Under the pieces are notes generated by a model. The model had not been told where the DNA came from. It worked only from the letters and a program-made list of their open reading frames with translations, and searched no databases. From IMG/VR virus record IMGVR_UViG_2713897055_000013: a stretch of 6,783 bases of DNA. One strand, given 5' to 3'. Every line of letters starts with the position of its first letter. Positions within the stretch are counted from its first letter, which is position 1. Shown piece by piece: positions 1,577 through 6,783 of this stretch. The position numbers and the translations under genes were made by a program. The DNA is from a virus (taxonomy: Duplodnaviria > Heunggongvirae > Uroviricota > Caudoviricetes).

Positions 1577-2984
1577 ACAGTGGTCCTACATCATCACCAT
1601 CAATGTAAATCACGGCGTCTTTTTCCAGTTTGGCTAACCATCGCCGCATATTTTTCACGTCATACCCAAGCCGTTTCATGTCATCACGTAACAGCGGGAT
1701 CGTGCACTTGTCGCCGTTCTGTGTGCGTGAACGGATGCACCCCCATAGTGCGGTATGGTTTTCCGTCTTGTTGCCTGCCTCCTCGATGCGTTCCAGTTCA
1801 ACGGGAGGGCGCGGCTTATCCACCACCACCAGCGACGTGATTAACTCCCCGTCAGCGTCGGTAAACAACTCCACCACGCGTAAGTCATATGCGGCTTCTT
1901 TGAGTTCCTCCGCGTCCTTCATTTTGGTGCATGAGATAACCAGCGCTTCGCTTCCTGCGTCCTCCCTGCGTATCCGGTATTCAGCATCCAGTGATGCACG
2001 AAATGCACTGGAACCGCGCGCGCCTTTCGTCTCATCCTTGCCGGAATGGTGAACCACCAGCACCGTGGCCCCTGTGCGTCGTTTCAGTTCGTCACAACCA
2101 CGGATAAACGCCCCCATATCACGGGAATCATTTTCATCATTCCCACCAAAGCAACGCGCCAGCGTATCCAGAATAATCATGCGTACAGGTTTACCCGTTT
2201 CCCGCTCCACCTGACGGGCAGCGATAACCATTTCATCAACATCAAGCGGGACCGCCGGAAAGATGGGACGGTTTACCAGATACAGATTTTTCACCTGCTC
2301 ACCGTGCACAACCTCCCAGGCTTTTACACGACGCGGAACGCCGATACCGCCTTCACCAACCACATAGAGAACAGCGCCATGCGCCACCCTGCGGCCTCCC
2401 CACTGGCGGCCCGTGGAAACGTGACACGCCCACGATCCGGCAAGGAATGATTTATAGGAACCGCTCGCCCCGTATATGCTGCAAAGCGACGATGCCGGAA
2501 TAATCCCCTTTACCACGTAATCAAGCTGTGTGTCGTATCCGGTAGATCCAACGCTCATCGGTAGCGTGGTTTTTCGCTGGGGGATTTTTTTCATGACCAG
2601 GCTTTCCCCGCGTTCCCATGCCTCCCTAAGCCGTGGAAGCTGGTCGCTCCATTCCTCCAGCAATTCGAAATTTTCAGAAAGTAGCCGCGCCTCCTGGACT
2701 CCGGCGATCGCCAGTTTCGTGGCGATGGTTAACAGCTGCGGCTCTTCAATATTTCCGGCGCGTATCACCGTCGCCCTGTATCGCCCATCATCAACAATCT
2801 GGAGGTTATCCAGTTCGCTTAACTGATAACGCCCCAGATAAACGGGAGGGACTGGATCGCCTGCTTTTTTGGCCTGTGCAATGATGTAATGCTCTGCGAA
2901 TGAGTGAGCATCAATACCCGCAAAAATAATCGCATCGGTGTATTTGTCTTGCGGTAATCGTTTTACGTTCGGTGCCAGTTTCAT
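1575..2984 (-). CDS. RecA-fold P-loop ATPase of the AAA_25 / RepA-DnaB-like type, 469 aa; putative island replication initiator/helicase
   Basis: Long ORF with GGGGT SD 6 nt upstream of the ATG. P-loop-like IYGASGSYKSF (aa 172-179), Walker B-like VRMIILDTL, then VLVVHHSGKD and GSSAFRASLDAEYRI blocks typical of RepA-like RecA-fold ATPases. About 100 aa of C-terminal extension could be a DNA-binding domain. Followed directly by the iteron array. Confidence 0.85.
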   Translation of the reverse strand: MKLAPNVKRLPQDKYTDAIIFAGIDAHSFAEHYIIAQAKKAGDPVPPVYLGRYQLSELDNLQIVDDGRYRATVIRAGNIEEPQLLTIATKLAIAGVQEARLLSENFELLEEWSDQLPRLREAWERGESLVMKKIPQRKTTLPMSVGSTGYDTQLDYVVKGIIPASSLCSIYGASGSYKSFLAGSWACHVSTGRQWGGRRVAHGAVLYVVGEGGIGVPRRVKAWEVVHGEQVKNLYLVNRPIFPAVPLDVDEMVIAARQVERETGKPVRMIILDTLARCFGGNDENDSRDMGAFIRGCDELKRRTGATVLVVHHSGKDETKGARGSSAFRASLDAEYRIRREDAGSEALVISCTKMKDAEELKEAAYDLRVVELFTDADGELITSLVVVDKPRPPVELERIEEAGNKTENHTALWGCIRSRTQNGDKCTIPLLRDDMKRLGYDVKNMRRWLAKLEKDAVIYIDGDDVGPL

Positions 2985-3280
2985 TTTTTACCCCTGAATA
3001 CGTTAAGCATCTTTTTTATTTCCTGAATATTGGCGCGTGCTTTCTCCCTGCTGGTTGGTTTACTGCGGGGCGCTGCCTGTACCAGAGAAAAATCACGATC
3101 GAACTGATAAACAGGCATAACGCAATCATATTCGTAGCCTTCACGGCGGTAAGTGATGCGCCGTTCCTCCACGCCTTTAATCGTTACCGTGCCGCCGTAC
3201 TGGTCGCGGTAAATATCACCGCGCGTAAATTTAGGGTGAGTGTTGCCACTGGCAGTTAAGCCAGAATATTTAAGTTTCAT
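2981..3280 (-). CDS. Hypothetical protein, 99 aa, translationally coupled to the ATPase gene
   Basis: Stop TGA overlaps the ATPase ATG (ATGA at 2981-2984); GGAG about 9-10 nt upstream of ATG 3278-3280. No family recognised. Confidence 0.6.
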   Translation of the reverse strand: MKLKYSGLTASGNTHPKFTRGDIYRDQYGGTVTIKGVEERRITYRREGYEYDCVMPVYQFDRDFSLVQAAPRSKPTSREKARANIQEIKKMLNVFRGKK

Positions 3281-3285
3281 TATTT

Positions 3286-3516
3286 TTATTCTCCGGTGTG
3301 GGGCGAGTTATTATTCTCGTGAATTGCCATTGCCTTATCCAGTTCATCAATAACAGGCGATAGTAATGTCTGAATGGCTGCAAACATTAATACACCTGAT
3401 TCTTCACCACCTTCCGGCACTTCAATTAATTTAATTAACAACGCATTCATTTCGCGTGCTTTAATTAATGCGTTTTCAGAGTGGATTAATACTTCAAAAG
3501 GGATTTTATGCATCAC
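3286..3516 (-). CDS. Hypothetical small protein, about 75 aa, in the AT-rich cassette (start GTG 3514-3516 or ATG 3511-3513)
   Basis: AGGGAG (plus 3524-3529) 7 nt upstream of the GTG; start overlaps the stop of the upstream ORF (GTGATGCATAA). Lies in a strongly AT-rich stretch. Confidence 0.5.
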   Translation of the reverse strand: MMHKIPFEVLIHSENALIKAREMNALLIKLIEVPEGGEESGVLMFAAIQTLLSPVIDELDKAMAIHENNNSPHTGE

Positions 3517-3736
3517 AAATTTTCTCCCTTATTCTTTTAATGTCCTCATTAAGGATGTCTGTAACTTTTATCAGCGAGTTTTTGGCAATTATTTTTATTG
3601 TTTTAAGTTTTCTTTTGTCGTGCTCCGACTGTGATTTTCTCTCCATGCTCTCCACCATGTGGGTAACATCAACGAGCGCACGTATCAGTATTTGCATTGC
3701 TTCTTCTGCTGCGTCTGGTGTGGTTTTATTGCACAT
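3506..3736 (-). CDS. Hypothetical small protein, 76 aa, in the AT-rich cassette
   Basis: Strong SD GGAGGGG (plus 3743-3749) 6 nt upstream of ATG 3734-3736. Charged, probably helical product MCNKTTPDAAEEAMQILIRALVDVTHMVESMERKSQ... Confidence 0.55.
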   Translation of the reverse strand: MCNKTTPDAAEEAMQILIRALVDVTHMVESMERKSQSEHDKRKLKTIKIIAKNSLIKVTDILNEDIKRIREKICDA

Positions 3737-3960
3737 GGTGTACCCCTCCGCATTTTTTTTTCGTTAGAAATAAGCGTTCTTCTTTCCTGTTCATCGCTCA
3801 GGAATACGCAGACCTCACCGCTAAGGCGTTTAAGTAAGCCGATGATTGCCCCTGATTCGCTGTCGGTCATCATGCCAGGGTAATCCTCTGCCAGTGCGCA
3901 AATAACTTCGATTTGGTGGGCGCGTTCTGCTGCCTGTTGTAGTGTGATTTCCTGGCTCAT
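3685..3960 (-). CDS. Hypothetical protein, 91 aa (MSQEITLQQAAERAHQIEV...); the track's 110-aa version starting at 4017 is less likely
   Basis: ATG 3958-3960 overlaps the stop of the upstream 64-aa ORF (ATGA) and is preceded by a G-rich SD. Its last 22 codons run through an A9 tract and overlap the next gene's SD and start. Confidence 0.5.
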   Translation of the reverse strand: MSQEITLQQAAERAHQIEVICALAEDYPGMMTDSESGAIIGLLKRLSGEVCVFLSDEQERRTLISNEKKMRRGTPCAIKPHQTQQKKQCKY

Positions 3961-4151
3961 AAGTCCACCCCCTGACGAATACGGGCGGCAAATACAGCGA
4001 CACAACCGGACGGGCAACGGCTACGCGCTTCGCGTTCCGTCCAGGCGGTTACGTGGATGATTTGAGATTCTCCGGCACTCAGTGCCAGAAAACGCCACAC
4101 AAAGGCCGTTTGTGTGTGTACAAGGTGTGGGGTATGATTTACGGCAACCAT
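3957..4151 (-). CDS. Hypothetical protein, 64 aa; first gene of the leftward operon
   Basis: Strong SD GAGGAG (plus 4157-4162) 5 nt upstream of ATG 4149-4151; stop coupled to the next gene (ATGA). No family recognised. Confidence 0.5.
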   Translation of the reverse strand: MVAVNHTPHLVHTQTAFVWRFLALSAGESQIIHVTAWTEREARSRCPSGCVAVFAARIRQGVDL

Positions 4152-4224
4152 AACGGCTCCTCGTTTACGTTGTTGGTTAGAAGCCCGTTGGTGTTCATAG
4201 CGCCAGCGGGCTTTGCTTTTGTGG

Positions 4225-4294
4225 TGTCATTGGTATACATTGTCACCGTAAGGCCATTATTATACTCGAGGTATACAATGTCAACCAATGACAA
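4225..4294. promoter_or_regulatory. Divergent control region with nested direct and inverted repeats (operator candidate) and overlapping promoter hexamers
   Basis: 14-bp direct repeats GGTATACATTGTCA (4232-4245) and GGTATACAATGTCA (4270-4283). 10-bp inverted pair TGTCATTGGT (4225-4234) and ACCAATGACA (4284-4293). On the minus strand a perfect TATAAT (plus 4259-4264) and TTGACA (plus 4279-4284), but only 14 bp apart. The second repeat overlaps the SD and ATG of the RHH gene. Confidence 0.45.
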
Positions 4295-4454
4295 CAAAAA
4301 GGAAAGGTTTTCCGTACAGCTTCGTCTTGATGCTGACTTATTCGAACGCTTAAGCATCGCCATGAAAGAAGATGGCGATGATAACCGCTCAGGATGGATA
4401 AAAAGGCTTTTGCGCCGTGAGTTGGATAAACGCGGCATAGAATCAAAAGAATAA
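4278..4454 (+). CDS. Ribbon-helix-helix (CopG/Arc/MetJ-like) DNA-binding protein, 58 aa; candidate island repressor
   Basis: ATG 4278 with GAGG SD (4268-4271) 6 nt upstream. Product MSTNDNKKERFSVQLRLDADLFERLSIAMKEDGDDNRSGWIKRLLRRELDKRGIESKE shows the strand-helix-helix pattern. Divergent from the main operon with repeats over its own start. Confidence 0.6.
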   Translation: MSTNDNKKERFSVQLRLDADLFERLSIAMKEDGDDNRSGWIKRLLRRELDKRGIESKE

Positions 4455-4511
4455 TTACTATCAGCGCCGTGGCGTGAGGAACTCCGGCGCATTGCTTTAC
4501 AGGTACACACA

Positions 4512-4715
4512 ATGACCAACAAAGAATCAACCAATACACCATCGCAAAAAACGAACAGAGAGCACGAAAATATGGCGCTCGAGCATGAATCAGAAAGATT
4601 CGCACCATGCGCTTTTGTCCTTGATGAGTTTCTAAAAAAATATTCACGTTCCGAACGGATGAAAATGGCAGCACAATACGGCCCCAACAAGCAAGATAAT
4701 TGCCCACCAGCCTGA
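4512..4715 (+). CDS. Hypothetical small ORF, 67 aa, downstream of the RHH gene (weak call)
   Basis: Same strand as the RHH gene and followed by a plus-strand terminator, but no convincing SD and a hydrophilic, low-complexity N-terminus. Confidence 0.3.
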   Translation: MTNKESTNTPSQKTNREHENMALEHESERFAPCAFVLDEFLKKYSRSERMKMAAQYGPNKQDNCPPA

Positions 4716-4836: not shown

Positions 4837-5045
4837 TTAAGCGGTCGTTCCGCGCGCTTCTTGTTCGCGTTCTTTCATCCATGCGATTACGTCTTCCTCA
4901 TACCATCCGCGACGGCGCAAACCGACACGAAAACCCTGCGGGAATTCTCCGGCGTTGATCATGCTTTGCAGCGTGCTGTCTGCCTTAATGTGGATAAGTT
5001 TTTTTTACTTCCTGGCGAAAGATGACTTTTTTTGATTGCTTCCAT
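4837..5045 (-). pseudogene. AlpA/excisionase-family-like small regulator interrupted by a frameshift at an A8 run (pseudogene or frameshift-dependent gene)
   Basis: ATG 5043-5045 with GAGGT SD 8 nt upstream opens a frame (MEAIKKSHLSPGSKKN...) that stops at 4959-4961. The -1 frame continues from the A8 run (plus T8 4999-5006) as ...LIHIKADSTLQSMINAGEFPQGFRVGLRRRGWYEEDVIAWMKEREQEARGTTA to a stop at 4837-4839. That C-terminal segment resembles the AlpA/Xis recognition-helix and wing region. Confidence 0.45.
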
Positions 5046-5541: not shown

Positions 5542-6783
5542 CTAAACGGCTCGGATACCCCTTTTACCACTGGCGAGGGTTACGCCCGTCGCCGCAGCCT
5601 CGACAAATTCGCCCCACCAGCGCATAAGCACGATGCGTTTTTCTATGTAGTTGCTCCGGTTGTATGCCCGTCTGACTTCGTTGGTGTCGACGTGGGCAAG
5701 TGCGGCCTCTATTACGTCCGGCTCAAAGCCTTCTTCGTTCGCTGCTGTGCTGAATATGGCGCGTAATCCATGAGACACCAGCACGCCAGCGAATCCCATG
5801 CGTCGTAATGCTGCGTTAGCGGTCTGGCTGTTCATCGGCTGCTGTGGGTCTTTCAGACTCGGGAAAACATAATCGCGGTGGTGGCTGATTGGTTTCATAG
5901 CCTCCAGCACTGCCATAGCCTGGTCACAAAGCGGGATAACGTGGTCGCGGCGCATCTTCATGCGTCCGGCGGGTATGGTCCAGCGTTGCGCTTCCATGTC
6001 GATTTCTTCCCAGCGTGCCGACGATGCTTCAACGGGACGGGTTACGGTCAGTAACTGCCATTCAATCAGTAATCTGGTCTGCCGTTCTGTTGCCGATACT
6101 GATAAAGCCTGCATAAGCTCCGGCAGCTGTTCGGGGCGGATTGTTGGCATATGTTTTTTTACAGGGGAGGGGAACGCCTTACGCACATTCATAGCCGGAT
6201 TGGCATCAATCATCCCACTATTGGCGGCGTAATCCATTACCTCATTTATACGCTGTAAAACTCGCTTGAGCGTTTCCAGGTTGCCACGTTCCTTGATGGG
6301 GGTAAGCACCTCAACGAACCTGCGAGCGGTCAGGGTGTCTATTGGCGTGTTGCCGATGAACGGGAATACATATTTTTCCAGCGATCGCCAGATGTCTTTA
6401 ATCGTATTGGGGGCCAGATTCTGGCTGATTTTCACCTGGTACCATGCTGTTGCCACATTTTCGAACGTGTTCCCTTGTCTTCGGGCCTCTGTCTCTCTTT
6501 TTTGCCTCTCGTGGTCCTGTGGGTCAGTTCCGGCACGAATTAACGCCCTGTACTCGCTACGGCGTTTTCTGGCATCAGCCAGGGAAACATCATCAAGCGA
6601 TCCAAAACTCAGCAATATTCTTTTTTTGTCCGATGGTCGGTAGTAGGAAAATCTCCAGAGTTTTGATCCGGACGGTTTGATCAGGAGAAAAAGCCCTCCG
6701 CCGTCCTGTAGGGTGTATTCCTTTTCTGCTGGTCTGGCTGCTTTGATCTGTACTGTGGTTAATGGGGGTGTTTTTCTCGCCAT
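5542..6783 (-). CDS. int: Tyrosine recombinase, P4-type integrase (N-terminal arm-binding domain plus C-terminal catalytic domain), 413 aa
   Basis: N-terminus MARKTPPLTTVQIKAARPAEKEYTLQDGGGLFLLIKPSGSKLWRFSYYRP matches the characteristic start of P4-family integrases. C-terminal HGLRAIFST (H-x-x-R) and a terminal RAYNRSNY block fit the catalytic region. ATG is 6781-6783, so upstream signals and the att site are outside the window. Confidence 0.9.
   Translation of the reverse strand: MARKTPPLTTVQIKAARPAEKEYTLQDGGGLFLLIKPSGSKLWRFSYYRPSDKKRILLSFGSLDDVSLADARKRRSEYRALIRAGTDPQDHERQKRETEARRQGNTFENVATAWYQVKISQNLAPNTIKDIWRSLEKYVFPFIGNTPIDTLTARRFVEVLTPIKERGNLETLKRVLQRINEVMDYAANSGMIDANPAMNVRKAFPSPVKKHMPTIRPEQLPELMQALSVSATERQTRLLIEWQLLTVTRPVEASSARWEEIDMEAQRWTIPAGRMKMRRDHVIPLCDQAMAVLEAMKPISHHRDYVFPSLKDPQQPMNSQTANAALRRMGFAGVLVSHGLRAIFSTAANEEGFEPDVIEAALAHVDTNEVRRAYNRSNYIEKRIVLMRWWGEFVEAAATGVTLASGKRGIRAV

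What the first reader, a model, noticed from the sequence alone, without database searches (positions are those of the whole stretch)
4225..4294. Dense direct-plus-inverted repeat operator in the divergent control region, overlapping the RHH gene start
Two 14-bp direct repeats (13/14 identical) and a 10-bp inverted pair are nested within 70 bp. They overlap a perfect minus-strand TATAAT (and a TTGACA with a 14-bp spacer) as well as the SD and ATG of the RHH gene. This is the layout expected for an autoregulated repressor controlling the leftward replication operon, a functional analogue of a satellite master repressor.
Basis: partly seen in the sequence, partly recalled or inferred. Interest (0 to 1): 0.55.

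Follow-up and report, generated by a model that had tools for sequence, protein, structure and literature searches.

The report
Repressor operator in a phage satellite
A small DNA-binding protein gene in an E. coli phage-satellite island sits next to a conserved, mirror-symmetric set of short repeats covering a strong back-to-back promoter, most likely the switch that keeps the island's replication genes off; this is a familiar kind of switch, but no repressor has been described for this group of islands.

Summary
The repeats are real. The dominant feature is larger than reported: an imperfect 31-nt dyad (4213-4243 / 4275-4305), matched by 0 of 2000 shuffles. The 14-bp direct repeat is only marginal alone.

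In 30 non-redundant relatives across Enterobacterales the dyad centre stays 19-19.5 bp upstream of the regulator's ATG. The inner flanks covary. Four CAWTG boxes lie at 10/38/10 spacing.

Codons 1-3 of the gene (ATG TCA ACC) hold an invariant minus-strand TTGACA.

The 58-aa protein models as a ribbon-helix-helix (RHH) fold, closest to the NikR N-domain and Arc. In E. coli, operator plus gene swap as one cassette with YlcI/YnfO-type regulators that carry different repeat sets.

Best reading: an autoregulated RHH repressor closing a bidirectional promoter, and so the Icd-like/replication operon of a Gram-negative PICI-type satellite. No binding or transcription data exist, so "master repressor" is inference.

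A conserved plus-strand antisense RNA candidate over the Icd-like start adds a second control layer.

This is a new member of a known kind, of moderate interest.

The parts
4213..4243 (.). Left arm of the dyad (TTGCTTTTGTGGTGTCATTGGTATACATTGT). The conserved core is about 4225-4249.
   Evidence: I1; 0/2000 shuffles; conserved left box TGGTGTACATTG at -48..-37 in relatives
4275..4305 (.). Right arm of the dyad (ACAATGTCAACCAATGACAACAAAAAGGAAA). The conserved core is about 4269-4293. It overlaps RHH codons 1-9.
   Evidence: (right box CAATGTCAACCAA at -2..+10; frozen synonymous sites)
4228..4232 (.). CAWTG box A (CATTG)
4238..4242 (.). CAWTG box B (CATTG)
4276..4280 (.). CAWTG box C (CAATG). It includes the RHH ATG and abuts the -35 of the leftward promoter.
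4286..4290 (.). CAWTG box D (CAATG)
4232..4245 (+). Direct repeat copy 1, GGTATACATTGTCA
   Evidence: D2; kept in L024-L027
4270..4283 (+). Direct repeat copy 2, GGTATACAATGTCA
   Evidence: (D2)
4279..4284 (-). -35 hexamer TTGACA of the leftward promoter PL, embedded in RHH codons 1-3
   Evidence: (TGTCAA in 29 of the 30 non-redundant relatives, the exception being L017; Ser codon TCA in all 29 genes of the codon alignment)
4256..4261 (-). -10 hexamer AATAAT of PL, with a 17-nt spacer. The predicted start is near 4249 (inferred).
   Evidence: 11/12; (A/G)ATAAT at 17 nt in L024-L027; TATATT at 16 nt in more distant relatives
4255..4263 (+). Candidate -10 of the rightward promoter PR for the RHH gene: CATTAT at 4255-4260 or TATTAT at 4258-4263. 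The -35 is weak (TGGTAT/TATACA, 4231-4239). The predicted start is about 4267-4270. This is an inference.
   Evidence: TATACA-18-TATTAT, 9/12; CATTAT kept in close relatives; 18-bp spacing rule from PMC12825309
4268..4271 (+). Shine-Dalgarno GAGG of the RHH gene
4278..4454 (+). RHH gene, 58 aa
3957..4151 (-). Icd-like gene, first gene of the leftward operon. The operon continues to DUF4222 (2981-3280) and the RepA-type helicase (1575-2984).
   Evidence: (phage_ICD_like, E = 7.5e-18)
4133..4224 (+). Candidate cis-antisense RNA gene. It has a -10 TATGAT at 4133-4138 and a predicted start near 4145. A helix pairs ACCA (4147-4150) with TGGT (4174-4177). A small stem-loop carries the anti-SD CUCCUC. 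A terminator hairpin at 4180-4214 is followed by a T-run.
   Evidence: terminator; 94.7% paired, 12 of 20 pairs compensatory, many G-U pairs

Best explanation
The 4213-4305 dyad is the operator of the 58-aa ribbon-helix-helix (RHH) protein encoded immediately beside it.

Layout. The region is a pseudo-symmetric, back-to-back promoter.
- A strong leftward promoter PL has its -35 TTGACA at 4284..4279 and its -10 AATAAT at 4261..4256. It drives the Icd-like/DUF4222/RepA-helicase/PerC operon.
- A weaker rightward promoter PR drives the RHH gene and shares the same A+T-rich -10 segment.
- Two operator arms flank that segment. Each arm carries two CAWTG boxes 10 bp apart: A and B at 4228 and 4238, C and D at 4276 and 4286.

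Proposed mechanism.
- By analogy with Arc-type RHH repressors, one dimer sits on each box and the two dimers of an arm bind cooperatively on one face of the helix.
- Occupancy of C and D covers the PL -35.
- Occupancy of A and B covers the PR -35 region and lies at about +8 to +22 of the PL transcript.
- One protein would therefore shut both promoters. This gives autoregulation plus repression of the island's replication operon while the island is quiescent.

What is shown: the repeats, their conservation and covariation, the promoter-like hexamers, the RHH fold of the model, and the cassette behaviour.

What is inferred: binding itself, stoichiometry, transcription start sites, the direction of regulation, and how repression is lifted. 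Possible routes are a helper-phage protein, or convergent transcription coming from alpA.
For: 1. The dyad is far beyond chance: 0 of 2000 shuffles reach it, and it is the best inverted repeat in the window.

2. In 30 non-redundant relatives from many genera of Enterobacterales the dyad centre is fixed at -19.5 or -19.0 from the ATG.
- The mean complementarity of mirrored positions is 0.58, against 0.19-0.29 when the partner column is slid.
- Several Watson-Crick pair types occur at the inner-flank positions. Examples are TCAACTCC/GGAGTTGA, GGTGTT/AACACC and TCAAC/GTTGA.

3. CAWTG occurs 11 times in 6783 nt, and four of those lie at 4228, 4238, 4276 and 4286. Relatives keep boxes at -51, -41, -2 and sometimes +8. 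ACCA and TGGT recur with a 10-bp period.

4. There is a DNA-level constraint inside the coding sequence. Ser codon 2 is TCA in 29 of 29 genes, and codons 3-8 have low synonymous entropy. The rest of the gene is saturated, with 2.0-2.5 bits at six-fold codons.

5. PL matches the consensus at 11 of 12 positions and is conserved in relatives.

6. The protein looks like an RHH.
- The AlphaFold2 model has pLDDT 79.6, with an extended N-terminus and helices at 19-32 and 37-51.
- The leading Foldseek matches, through rank 45, are RHH or RHH-like proteins: NikR N-domain at 36-39% identity and probability 0.99, then Arc, CopG, MazE, AmrZ and ParG.
- hhalign against the NikR N-domain gives E = 4.6e-5.
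- Weak NikR and YlcI_YnfO_N hits also appear.

7. The site behaves as a cassette.
- About 600 E. coli genomes share only the leader 4152-4222.
- The right boundary is the regulator's stop codon.
- Alternative YlcI/YnfO regulators occupy the same slot with their own repeat sets: four GTGATATAC-type 9-mers (three GTGATATAC plus GAGATATAC), or three copies of CTGGATTCCAG-type palindromes.

8. The divergent partner gene is Icd-like in most loci where a divergent ORF could be read.
Against: - There is no experimental evidence here for binding, repression or any transcription start site.
- The Pfam RHH_1 score is below the gathering threshold: 15.2 against 20.5 bits.
- The PDB sequence search gave nothing significant.
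- Part of the right arm's conservation is explained by the -35 hexamer, the start codon and a preference for A-rich early codons.
- The relatives are phylogenetically related, so the number of independent compensatory events is small.
- PR is poorly defined. It has a weak -35, and the predicted leader is only 8-11 nt.
- Related islands have no divergent regulator at all (L021), so the module is dispensable for the island type.
- No other operator copies exist elsewhere in the island, which argues against a multi-site 'master' regulator.
Confidence: 0.65

Rival explanations
1. The dyad is a real protein-binding site, but its ligand is another factor: AlpA, PerC, a helper-phage protein or a host nucleoid protein. 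The RHH protein would then act elsewhere.
For: - In Gram-negative PICIs the known regulator is the activator AlpA, and no repressor has been found (PMC6092414).
- No binding data exist for the RHH protein.
Against: - The dyad always accompanies the RHH gene across genera, while the downstream neighbours vary: AlpA-like, Bro-N proteins, others or none.
- In E. coli the repeats are replaced together with the regulator gene, while the flanks stay the same.
- Dyad symmetry with boxes 10 bp apart suits small dimeric RHH proteins.
Confidence: 0.12
2. The symmetry only reflects a bidirectional promoter, with mirrored -35 and -10 elements for RNA polymerase in both orientations. No dedicated operator is involved.
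For: - Promoter-like hexamers occur on both strands around one shared A+T-rich -10 segment.
- The predicted divergent starts are about 18 bp apart. That is the commonest spacing at bacterial bidirectional promoters (PMC12825309).
Against: - Symmetry and covariation extend outside the hexamers. They cover inner flanks -9..-3 with -36..-30, and outer positions up to about 34 bp from the centre.
- The two -35 positions are precisely where symmetry is invariantly broken: GT on the left against CA on the right.
- CAWTG and ACCA motifs repeat with a 10-bp period.
- The alternative cassettes have quite different repeats in the same place.
Confidence: 0.1
3. The RHH protein is the antitoxin of a two-gene toxin-antitoxin pair with the 67-aa gene at 4512-4715. 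The dyad would be the autoregulatory operator of that pair and would have no role in island control.
For: - Many type II antitoxins are RHH proteins that autoregulate through palindromes.
- In this window a small ORF follows on the same strand.
- YlcI-type proteins hit a post-segregational-killing transcription factor family weakly.
Against: - The 67-aa gene is found downstream only in the E. coli loci.
- In the other genera the RHH gene has no conserved same-strand partner downstream, and in most loci the next sizeable ORF is on the opposite strand.
- The same 67-aa gene follows a different regulator in L002.
- The 67-aa protein matches no toxin family.
- The operator also covers the promoter of the divergent operon.
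Confidence: 0.04
4. The repeats are a chance feature of an A+T-rich intergenic region.
For: The 14-bp direct repeat on its own is matched by 0.5-1.2% of shuffles and exceeded elsewhere in the window.
Against: - The dyad is matched by 0 of 2000 shuffles.
- The dyad centre is conserved and the flanks covary in 30 relatives.
Confidence: 0.02

Closest known systems
Phage P22 immunity I region (Arc and Mnt RHH repressors, divergent Pant/Pmnt promoters, sar antisense RNA)
   Same: - Small RHH repressors act on operators in a compact divergent promoter region.
- An antisense RNA adds a second layer of control. [quoted passage not shown]
- Arc appears among the Foldseek matches.
   Different: - There is no significant sequence similarity to Arc or Mnt.
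- Only one repressor gene is present here.
- The controlled operon starts with an Icd-like gene and carries replication genes, not an antirepressor.
- The operator has two arms flanking a shared -10 segment, and the -35 lies inside the repressor's own first codons.
- Details of the P22 operator layout are from my own knowledge and were not tested here.
Plasmid pMV158 copy control (RHH repressor CopG plus antisense RNAII controlling repB)
   Same: - Replication genes are under dual control by an RHH transcriptional repressor bound at the promoter and by a small antisense RNA over the translation start (PMC4485353 and PMC2724298 abstracts).
- CopG is among the fold matches.
   Different: - CopG is co-transcribed with repB. 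Here the RHH gene is divergent from the operon.
- The element is an integrated satellite, not a plasmid.
- The antisense RNA here is only predicted.
SaPI Stl / Gram-positive PICI Rpr master repressors
   Same: - The regulator gene is divergent from the excision and replication operon of a phage satellite.
- It has the same positional logic as the 'pair of divergent regulatory genes' (PMC6092414).
   Different: - Stl and Rpr are larger helix-turn-helix proteins co-oriented with int. Here int and alpA converge on the RHH gene.
- Derepression by a helper protein is untested.
- The module is absent from many related islands.
NikR N-terminal RHH domain (E. coli)
   Same: - It is the best structural and sequence relative: 36-39% identity over about 40 residues, Foldseek probability 0.99 and hhalign E = 4.6e-5.
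- The strand SVQLRLD aligns with NikR RVTITLD.
   Different: - There is no metal-binding C-terminal domain, so there is no nickel sensing and no NikR-type tetramer.
- The NCBIfam NikR scores are far below the cut-off: 18.9 against 83 bits.
YlcI/YnfO family regulators and lambdoid-style immunity cassettes
   Same: - They occupy the same slot between the same conserved flanks, each with its own repeat set.
- The RHH protein has a weak YlcI_YnfO_N hit, E = 0.0039.
   Different: - The score is below the family cut-off: 17.2 against 30 bits.
- hhalign against a YlcI protein is not significant, E = 0.12.
- No paper on YlcI or YnfO function was found.

Membership tests
Ribbon-helix-helix (Arc/MetJ/CopG) superfamily | Strand-helix-helix topology of about 45 residues | tested here: met
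   The AlphaFold2 model (pLDDT 79.6) has an extended N-terminal segment, then helices at 19-32 and 37-51. The leading Foldseek PDB matches, through rank 45, are RHH or RHH-like proteins.
Ribbon-helix-helix (Arc/MetJ/CopG) superfamily | N-terminal strand with alternating polar and hydrophobic residues, and a G-x-(S/T/N)-type turn before helix 2 | tested here: met
   The strand F-S-V-Q-L-R-L-D and the turn D-G-D-D-N-R-S are invariant or nearly so in 38 homologues. They align with NikR RVTITLD and G-Y-N-N-R-S.
Ribbon-helix-helix (Arc/MetJ/CopG) superfamily | Significant match to a curated RHH sequence model | tested here: not met
   Pfam RHH_1 gives E = 0.021 and 15.2 bits, below the 20.5-bit cut-off. 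The PDB profile search gave no significant hit. Sequence-level membership therefore rests on the hhalign match to NikR and on the fold.
Ribbon-helix-helix (Arc/MetJ/CopG) superfamily | Obligate dimer that inserts a two-stranded sheet into the major groove of repeated sites | not testable with these tools
   Only single-chain prediction was available. The sites fit the expectation (four CAWTG boxes 10 bp apart within each arm), but binding is untested.
Gram-negative PICI-type phage satellite | int, alpA, a replication module and a late or capsid zone in a small island at a tRNA gene | tested here: met
   In L001 the order is tRNA-Pro, int, alpA-type HTH, Icd-like, DUF4222, RepA helicase, PerC and a protease/capsid fusion, spanning about 9.3 kb. 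This fits the Integration/Bro/Replication/Late scheme of PMC10111431.
Gram-negative PICI-type phage satellite | Induction and packaging by a helper phage | not testable with these tools
   No experimental data exist for this island.
Satellite master repressor (Stl/Rpr-like role) | Regulator gene divergent from the excision and replication operon, with its operator over that operon's promoter | tested here: met
   The RHH gene is divergent from the Icd-like/RepA operon, and the dyad covers the PL -35.
Satellite master repressor (Stl/Rpr-like role) | Repressor co-oriented with int, on the int side of the divergent pair | tested here: not met
   int and alpA are on the minus strand and converge on the 3' end of the RHH gene.
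Satellite master repressor (Stl/Rpr-like role) | Keeps the whole island silent and is inactivated by a helper-phage protein | not testable with these tools
   There are no functional data. Related islands lack the module entirely.
Type II toxin-antitoxin (RHH antitoxin) | Conserved cognate toxin gene immediately downstream in one operon | tested here: not met
   The downstream 67-aa gene occurs only in the E. coli loci. Other genera have no conserved same-strand gene downstream of the RHH gene. The 67-aa gene also follows a YlcI regulator in L002.
YlcI/YnfO family | Score above the NCBIfam NF041551 cut-off | tested here: not met
   17.2 bits against a 30-bit cut-off. hhalign against a YlcI protein gives E = 0.12.
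Bidirectional (pseudo-symmetric) sigma-70 promoter | Overlapping -10 elements on opposite strands, with divergent starts about 18 bp apart | tested here: inconclusive
   AATAAT (minus strand, 4261..4256) overlaps CATTAT (plus strand, 4255-4260). Predicted starts are near 4249 and 4267, 18 bp apart (rule from PMC12825309). No start sites have been mapped.

The most novel reading that the evidence does not exclude
[quoted passage not shown] Each cassette would be a small RHH-type repressor (this family, or a YlcI/YnfO type) plus its own operator, slotted between two conserved hairpin-containing flanks. These cassettes would work together with a conserved, previously uncatalogued cis-antisense RNA over the Icd-like start codon. 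The island's replication operon would then be under dual protein and RNA control like a plasmid copy-control circuit, on top of the known AlpA activation.
Probability: 0.4. Interest if true: 0.65.

Novelty: new member of a known kind. Interest (0 to 1): 0.45.

Why it matters
[quoted passage not shown] No repressor has been found for them. A divergent RHH repressor with its own operator over a near-consensus promoter for the replication operon would explain how some of these islands stay silent. It would also give a concrete and easily testable target: a 58-aa protein and a 90-bp site.

The cassette swapping with YlcI/YnfO-type regulators suggests immunity-group diversification among satellites, as seen in lambdoid phages. 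It would also assign a first function to the widespread but unstudied YlcI/YnfO family.

The kind of switch itself is textbook, so the gain is in satellite biology rather than in mechanism.

Tried and rejected
- Rfam scans of the whole window and of the control region found nothing near any gathering score. This includes the C4/CI-type immunity RNAs expected near icd-like genes. The only lead is a weak plus-strand STnc390 match (14.8 bits against 50).
- A sequence search of the PDB with the family profile gave no significant hit. Fold comparison was needed.
- I asked whether the two arms could form an RNA hairpin. The non-Watson-Crick mirrored pairs are not enriched for G-T. With the predicted starts neither transcript holds both arms. 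Rejected in favour of DNA-level symmetry.
- I looked for a third operator at the start of the 67-aa gene (GGTACACAATGACCAAC, near 4503). That sequence is shared with the YlcI cassette in L002, so it is not specific to the RHH protein. Not pursued.
- I searched the whole island for extra operator copies. None exceeded chance.
- The toxin-antitoxin reading was rejected because the downstream gene is not conserved.
- I looked for a correlation between the strand residues of the protein and operator variants. The putative reading residues Q14 and R16 are nearly invariant or invariant, and so are the box cores. No specificity covariation could be extracted.
- Literature searches for an RHH or YlcI/YnfO regulator in PICIs found nothing relevant.

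Full report
**Context**

The window is part of a small island inserted next to a tRNA-Pro gene in E. coli. It is 98-99% identical over its two aligned blocks (and 99.5% over 3900-4700) to NZ_CP146515, strain MDP9-27.

- On the minus strand it encodes an integrase (5542-6783), an AlpA-type HTH gene near 4837-5043, an Icd-like gene (3957-4151), several small ORFs, a DUF4222 gene (2981-3280), a RepA/AAA_25 helicase (1575-2984) and a PerC-like gene (852-1124).
- Just outside the window lies a ClpP-protease/major-capsid fusion gene.
- This fits the Integration/Bro/Replication/Late organisation described for Gram-negative phage-inducible chromosomal islands (PMC10111431).
- Only two genes point the other way. 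One is the 58-aa gene at 4278-4454. The other is a 67-aa gene at 4512-4715.
- The finding concerns the 126-bp gap between the 58-aa gene and the Icd-like gene.

Yes.

The repeat finder shows that the inverted pair is the core of a 31-nt dyad. Its arms are 4213-4243 and 4275-4305, with 25 of 31 positions complementary and 31 nt between them.

- With a match/mismatch score, this dyad scores 19. Dinucleotide-preserving shuffles of 4152-4311 give a mean of 7.6 (sd 1.2, maximum 16), and 0 of 2000 reach it.
- It is also the best inverted repeat in any 160-bp slice of the window.
- The direct repeat is much weaker evidence. Between 0.5% and 1.2% of shuffles match it, and other slices have longer direct repeats.
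- Part of the direct repeat arises because GTATAC and ACAWTGT are themselves palindromes, so the same bases count as both direct and inverted.

**The protein**

- Pfam RHH_1 matches below threshold: E = 0.021 and 15.2 bits against a 20.5-bit cut-off.
- NCBIfam gives weak hits to NikR (E = 0.0012) and to YlcI_YnfO_N (E = 0.0039).
- Ninety-six homologues, all unnamed, occur across Enterobacterales at 65-97% identity among the 37 that were aligned.
- An AlphaFold2 model built on 38 of them has pLDDT 79.6. It shows an extended N-terminal segment and two helices at 19-32 and 37-51.
- The leading Foldseek matches in the PDB, through rank 45, are ribbon-helix-helix or RHH-like proteins: the NikR N-domain at 36-39% identity and probability 0.99, then Arc, CopG, MazE, AmrZ and ParG.
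It aligns SVQLRLD with NikR RVTITLD.
- I accept the RHH fold. Sequence-model membership is formally not met.

**Comparative test of the repeats**

I collected 17 loci from one-genome-per-species contigs and 25 from viral contigs, plus E. coli records. These gave 30 non-redundant upstream regions.

- In most loci where a divergent ORF could be read, it has an Icd-like motif.
- In most loci the best or near-best dyad centre lies at -19.5 from the ATG. It lies at -19.0 in the window's own clade.
- Conserved boxes are TGGTGTACATTG at -48..-37 and CAATGTCAACCAA at -2..+10.
- Mirrored positions 14-40 bp from the centre are complementary in 58% of cells. The figure is 19-29% when the partner is slid by 1-3 columns.
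- The inner flanks show several Watson-Crick pair types at one position. Examples are TCAACTCC/GGAGTTGA, GGTGTT/AACACC and TCAAC/GTTGA.
- Secondary symmetry centres 5 and 10 bp away, and ACCA/TGGT peaks every 10 bp, indicate a periodic array.
- The simplest unit is the palindromic pentamer CAWTG. It occurs only 11 times in the 6783-nt window, and four of these are at 4228, 4238, 4276 and 4286.
- Relatives keep boxes at -51, -41, -2 and sometimes +8.
- In the window's clade the 14-bp direct repeat is also kept. L027 shows the same A-to-T change in both copies.

**DNA-level constraint inside the gene**

In 29 aligned genes the synonymous sites are saturated. Six-fold codons reach 2.0-2.5 bits and other Ser codons 1.6-1.8 bits.

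Codon 2 is TCA in 29 of 29 genes, and codons 3-8 have low synonymous entropy.

ATG TCA ACC contains the reverse complement of TTGACA. A preference for A-rich early codons may add to the effect at codons 4-8.

**Promoters**

The consensus scan finds a minus-strand TTGACA-17-AATAAT (4284..4256, 11 of 12 matches). It also finds a plus-strand TATACA-18-TATTAT (4234-4263, 9 of 12 matches).

- The closest relatives keep TTGACA-17-(A/G)ATAAT. More distant ones have TTGACA-16-TATATT.
- PL is therefore near-consensus. Its -35 lies inside the regulator's first codons, between boxes C and D.
- Its predicted start near 4249 places boxes B and A at about +8 to +22.
- The rightward promoter is less clear. 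A conserved CATTAT at 4255-4260 overlaps the PL -10 on the other strand. It predicts a start near 4267, 18 bp from the PL start.
- An 18-bp separation is the commonest at bacterial bidirectional promoters (PMC12825309).
- All start sites given here are inferences.

**Cassette behaviour**

Of 5426 complete E. coli genomes, 675 match some part of 4152-4454. Only 11 hold most of it. About 600 share only the first 70 nt or so, which is the leader of the Icd-like gene.

- The right boundary of the variable segment is the regulator's stop codon. The sequence downstream is shared with loci that carry a YlcI/YnfO-type regulator instead.
- Those alternative regulators have their own repeat sets at the same place. 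One has four GTGATATAC-type 9-mers (three GTGATATAC plus GAGATATAC). The other has three copies of an 11-bp palindrome, CTGGATTCCAG or GTGGAATCCAC.
- One genome carries both cassettes in tandem.
- O157:H7-type islands have no divergent regulator. There the order is int, alpA, a 247-aa gene and Icd-like, all on one strand.
- Operator and regulator are thus inherited and exchanged as one unit. This is the behaviour expected of a cognate pair.

**Most likely mechanism**

An RHH repressor binds two operator arms, each with two boxes 10 bp apart. The arms flank the shared -10 segment of a pseudo-symmetric divergent promoter. Binding would close PL, which drives the replication operon, and PR, which drives its own gene. 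I put this at 0.65.

**Rivals**

- Another protein binds the dyad (0.12). This is disfavoured by the co-inheritance with the RHH gene while the neighbouring genes vary.
- Promoter symmetry alone explains the dyad (0.10). This is disfavoured because symmetry and covariation lie outside the hexamers, and the -35 positions are exactly where symmetry is broken.
- The region is a toxin-antitoxin operator (0.04). This is disfavoured because the 67-aa gene is not conserved downstream and also follows a different regulator.
- Chance (0.02).

No further operator copies occur in the island. The protein therefore looks like a local switch rather than a multi-site regulator.

**A second layer noticed nearby**

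The plus strand from about 4133 to 4224 looks like a small antisense RNA gene.

- All 20 aligned loci have a TANNNT hexamer in one alignment column. In the window it is TATGAT at 4133-4138. About half are preceded by TGn.
- After it come three helices ending in a G+C hairpin (4180-4214) and a T-run. This scores as an intrinsic terminator on the plus strand.
- On the alignment, 94.7% of cells pair, against 35-50% for slid controls. Twelve of 20 pairs show compensatory changes.
- About 60 cells are G-U pairs, which would be A-C mismatches on the other strand.
- The small stem-loop carries the complement of the Icd-like Shine-Dalgarno sequence.
- The element is present in islands with and without the RHH cassette.
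- No Rfam family reaches threshold.

If real, the operon is under dual protein and RNA control. Two known systems work that way. In pMV158, CopG and RNAII control repB (PMC4485353). In P22 immI, the Arc and Mnt repressors and sar RNA control ant (PMC2629481).

**Comparison with the literature and novelty**

- I found no paper describing an RHH or YlcI/YnfO regulator in these islands.
- The switch itself is a standard RHH repressor-operator arrangement.
- It is a new, uncharacterised member of that kind in a setting where a repressor would be informative.
- The 'master repressor' label is not earned. The module is optional, int and alpA are not co-oriented with it, and nothing is known about how repression would be lifted.

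Noticed in passing
window 4133-4224 (+): Candidate cis-antisense small RNA, about 75-80 nt, over the Icd-like start codon and Shine-Dalgarno sequence. All 20 aligned loci have a TANNNT -10 in one column. Three helices show 12 of 20 compensatory pairs and many G-U pairs, which favours the plus strand. A terminator hairpin at 4180-4214 is followed by a T-run. No Rfam family matches; there is a weak STnc390 hit at 14.8 bits. It is shared by about 600 E. coli genomes, including islands without the RHH cassette.
   Followed up: partly
window 4222-4454; L002 3253-3750; L003 3229-4282: The regulator slot is mosaic. The RHH cassette is replaced by, or stands in tandem with, YlcI/YnfO-type regulators that carry different repeat sets (GTGATATAC, or CTGGATTCCAG palindromes). 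The conserved flanks on both sides each end in a hairpin followed by TTGCTTT.
   Followed up: partly
window 4837-5043 (-): The AlpA-type HTH gene is interrupted in the window by two frame shifts at A-runs, relative to the intact 68-aa gene in L001. Either sequencing errors at homopolymers or decay of the activator gene could explain this.
   Followed up: partly
L001 3176-5065 (just left of the window): The island carries its own ClpP-like prohead protease/major capsid fusion gene, although it is only about 9 kb and lacks other head genes. This resembles the capsid-bearing PICIs noted in PMC10111431.
   Followed up: no
L017 2801-2965, L019 2713-2886, L020 2659-2814: Some genera carry a second, 45-51% identical RHH paralogue in tandem with the homologue of the window's gene. 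In L017 and L019 the homologue then lacks the left operator box.
   Followed up: no
window 4096-4116 (-): A terminator-like hairpin plus T-run (CACACAAACGGCCTTTGTGTG GCGTTTTCTG) lies on the sense strand inside the Icd-like coding region, about 35-55 nt after its start. It may be an attenuation point.
   Followed up: no
window 4490-4540 (+): The start region of the 67-aa gene resembles the RHH start region: CATTG, GGTACACAATGACCAAC and TCAACCAAT. It is also present downstream of a YlcI regulator in L002, so it is not specific to this cassette.
   Followed up: partly
window 3957-4151 (-): The Icd-like protein matches PHROG families labelled 'transcriptional repressor' (phrog_1743 and phrog_6196), as well as the NCBIfam Icd-like model. 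The basis of that label is unclear.
   Followed up: no
window 3300-3691: This stretch of small minus-strand ORFs does not align with the otherwise 98-99% identical island L001. It is a second variable segment within the operon.
   Followed up: no
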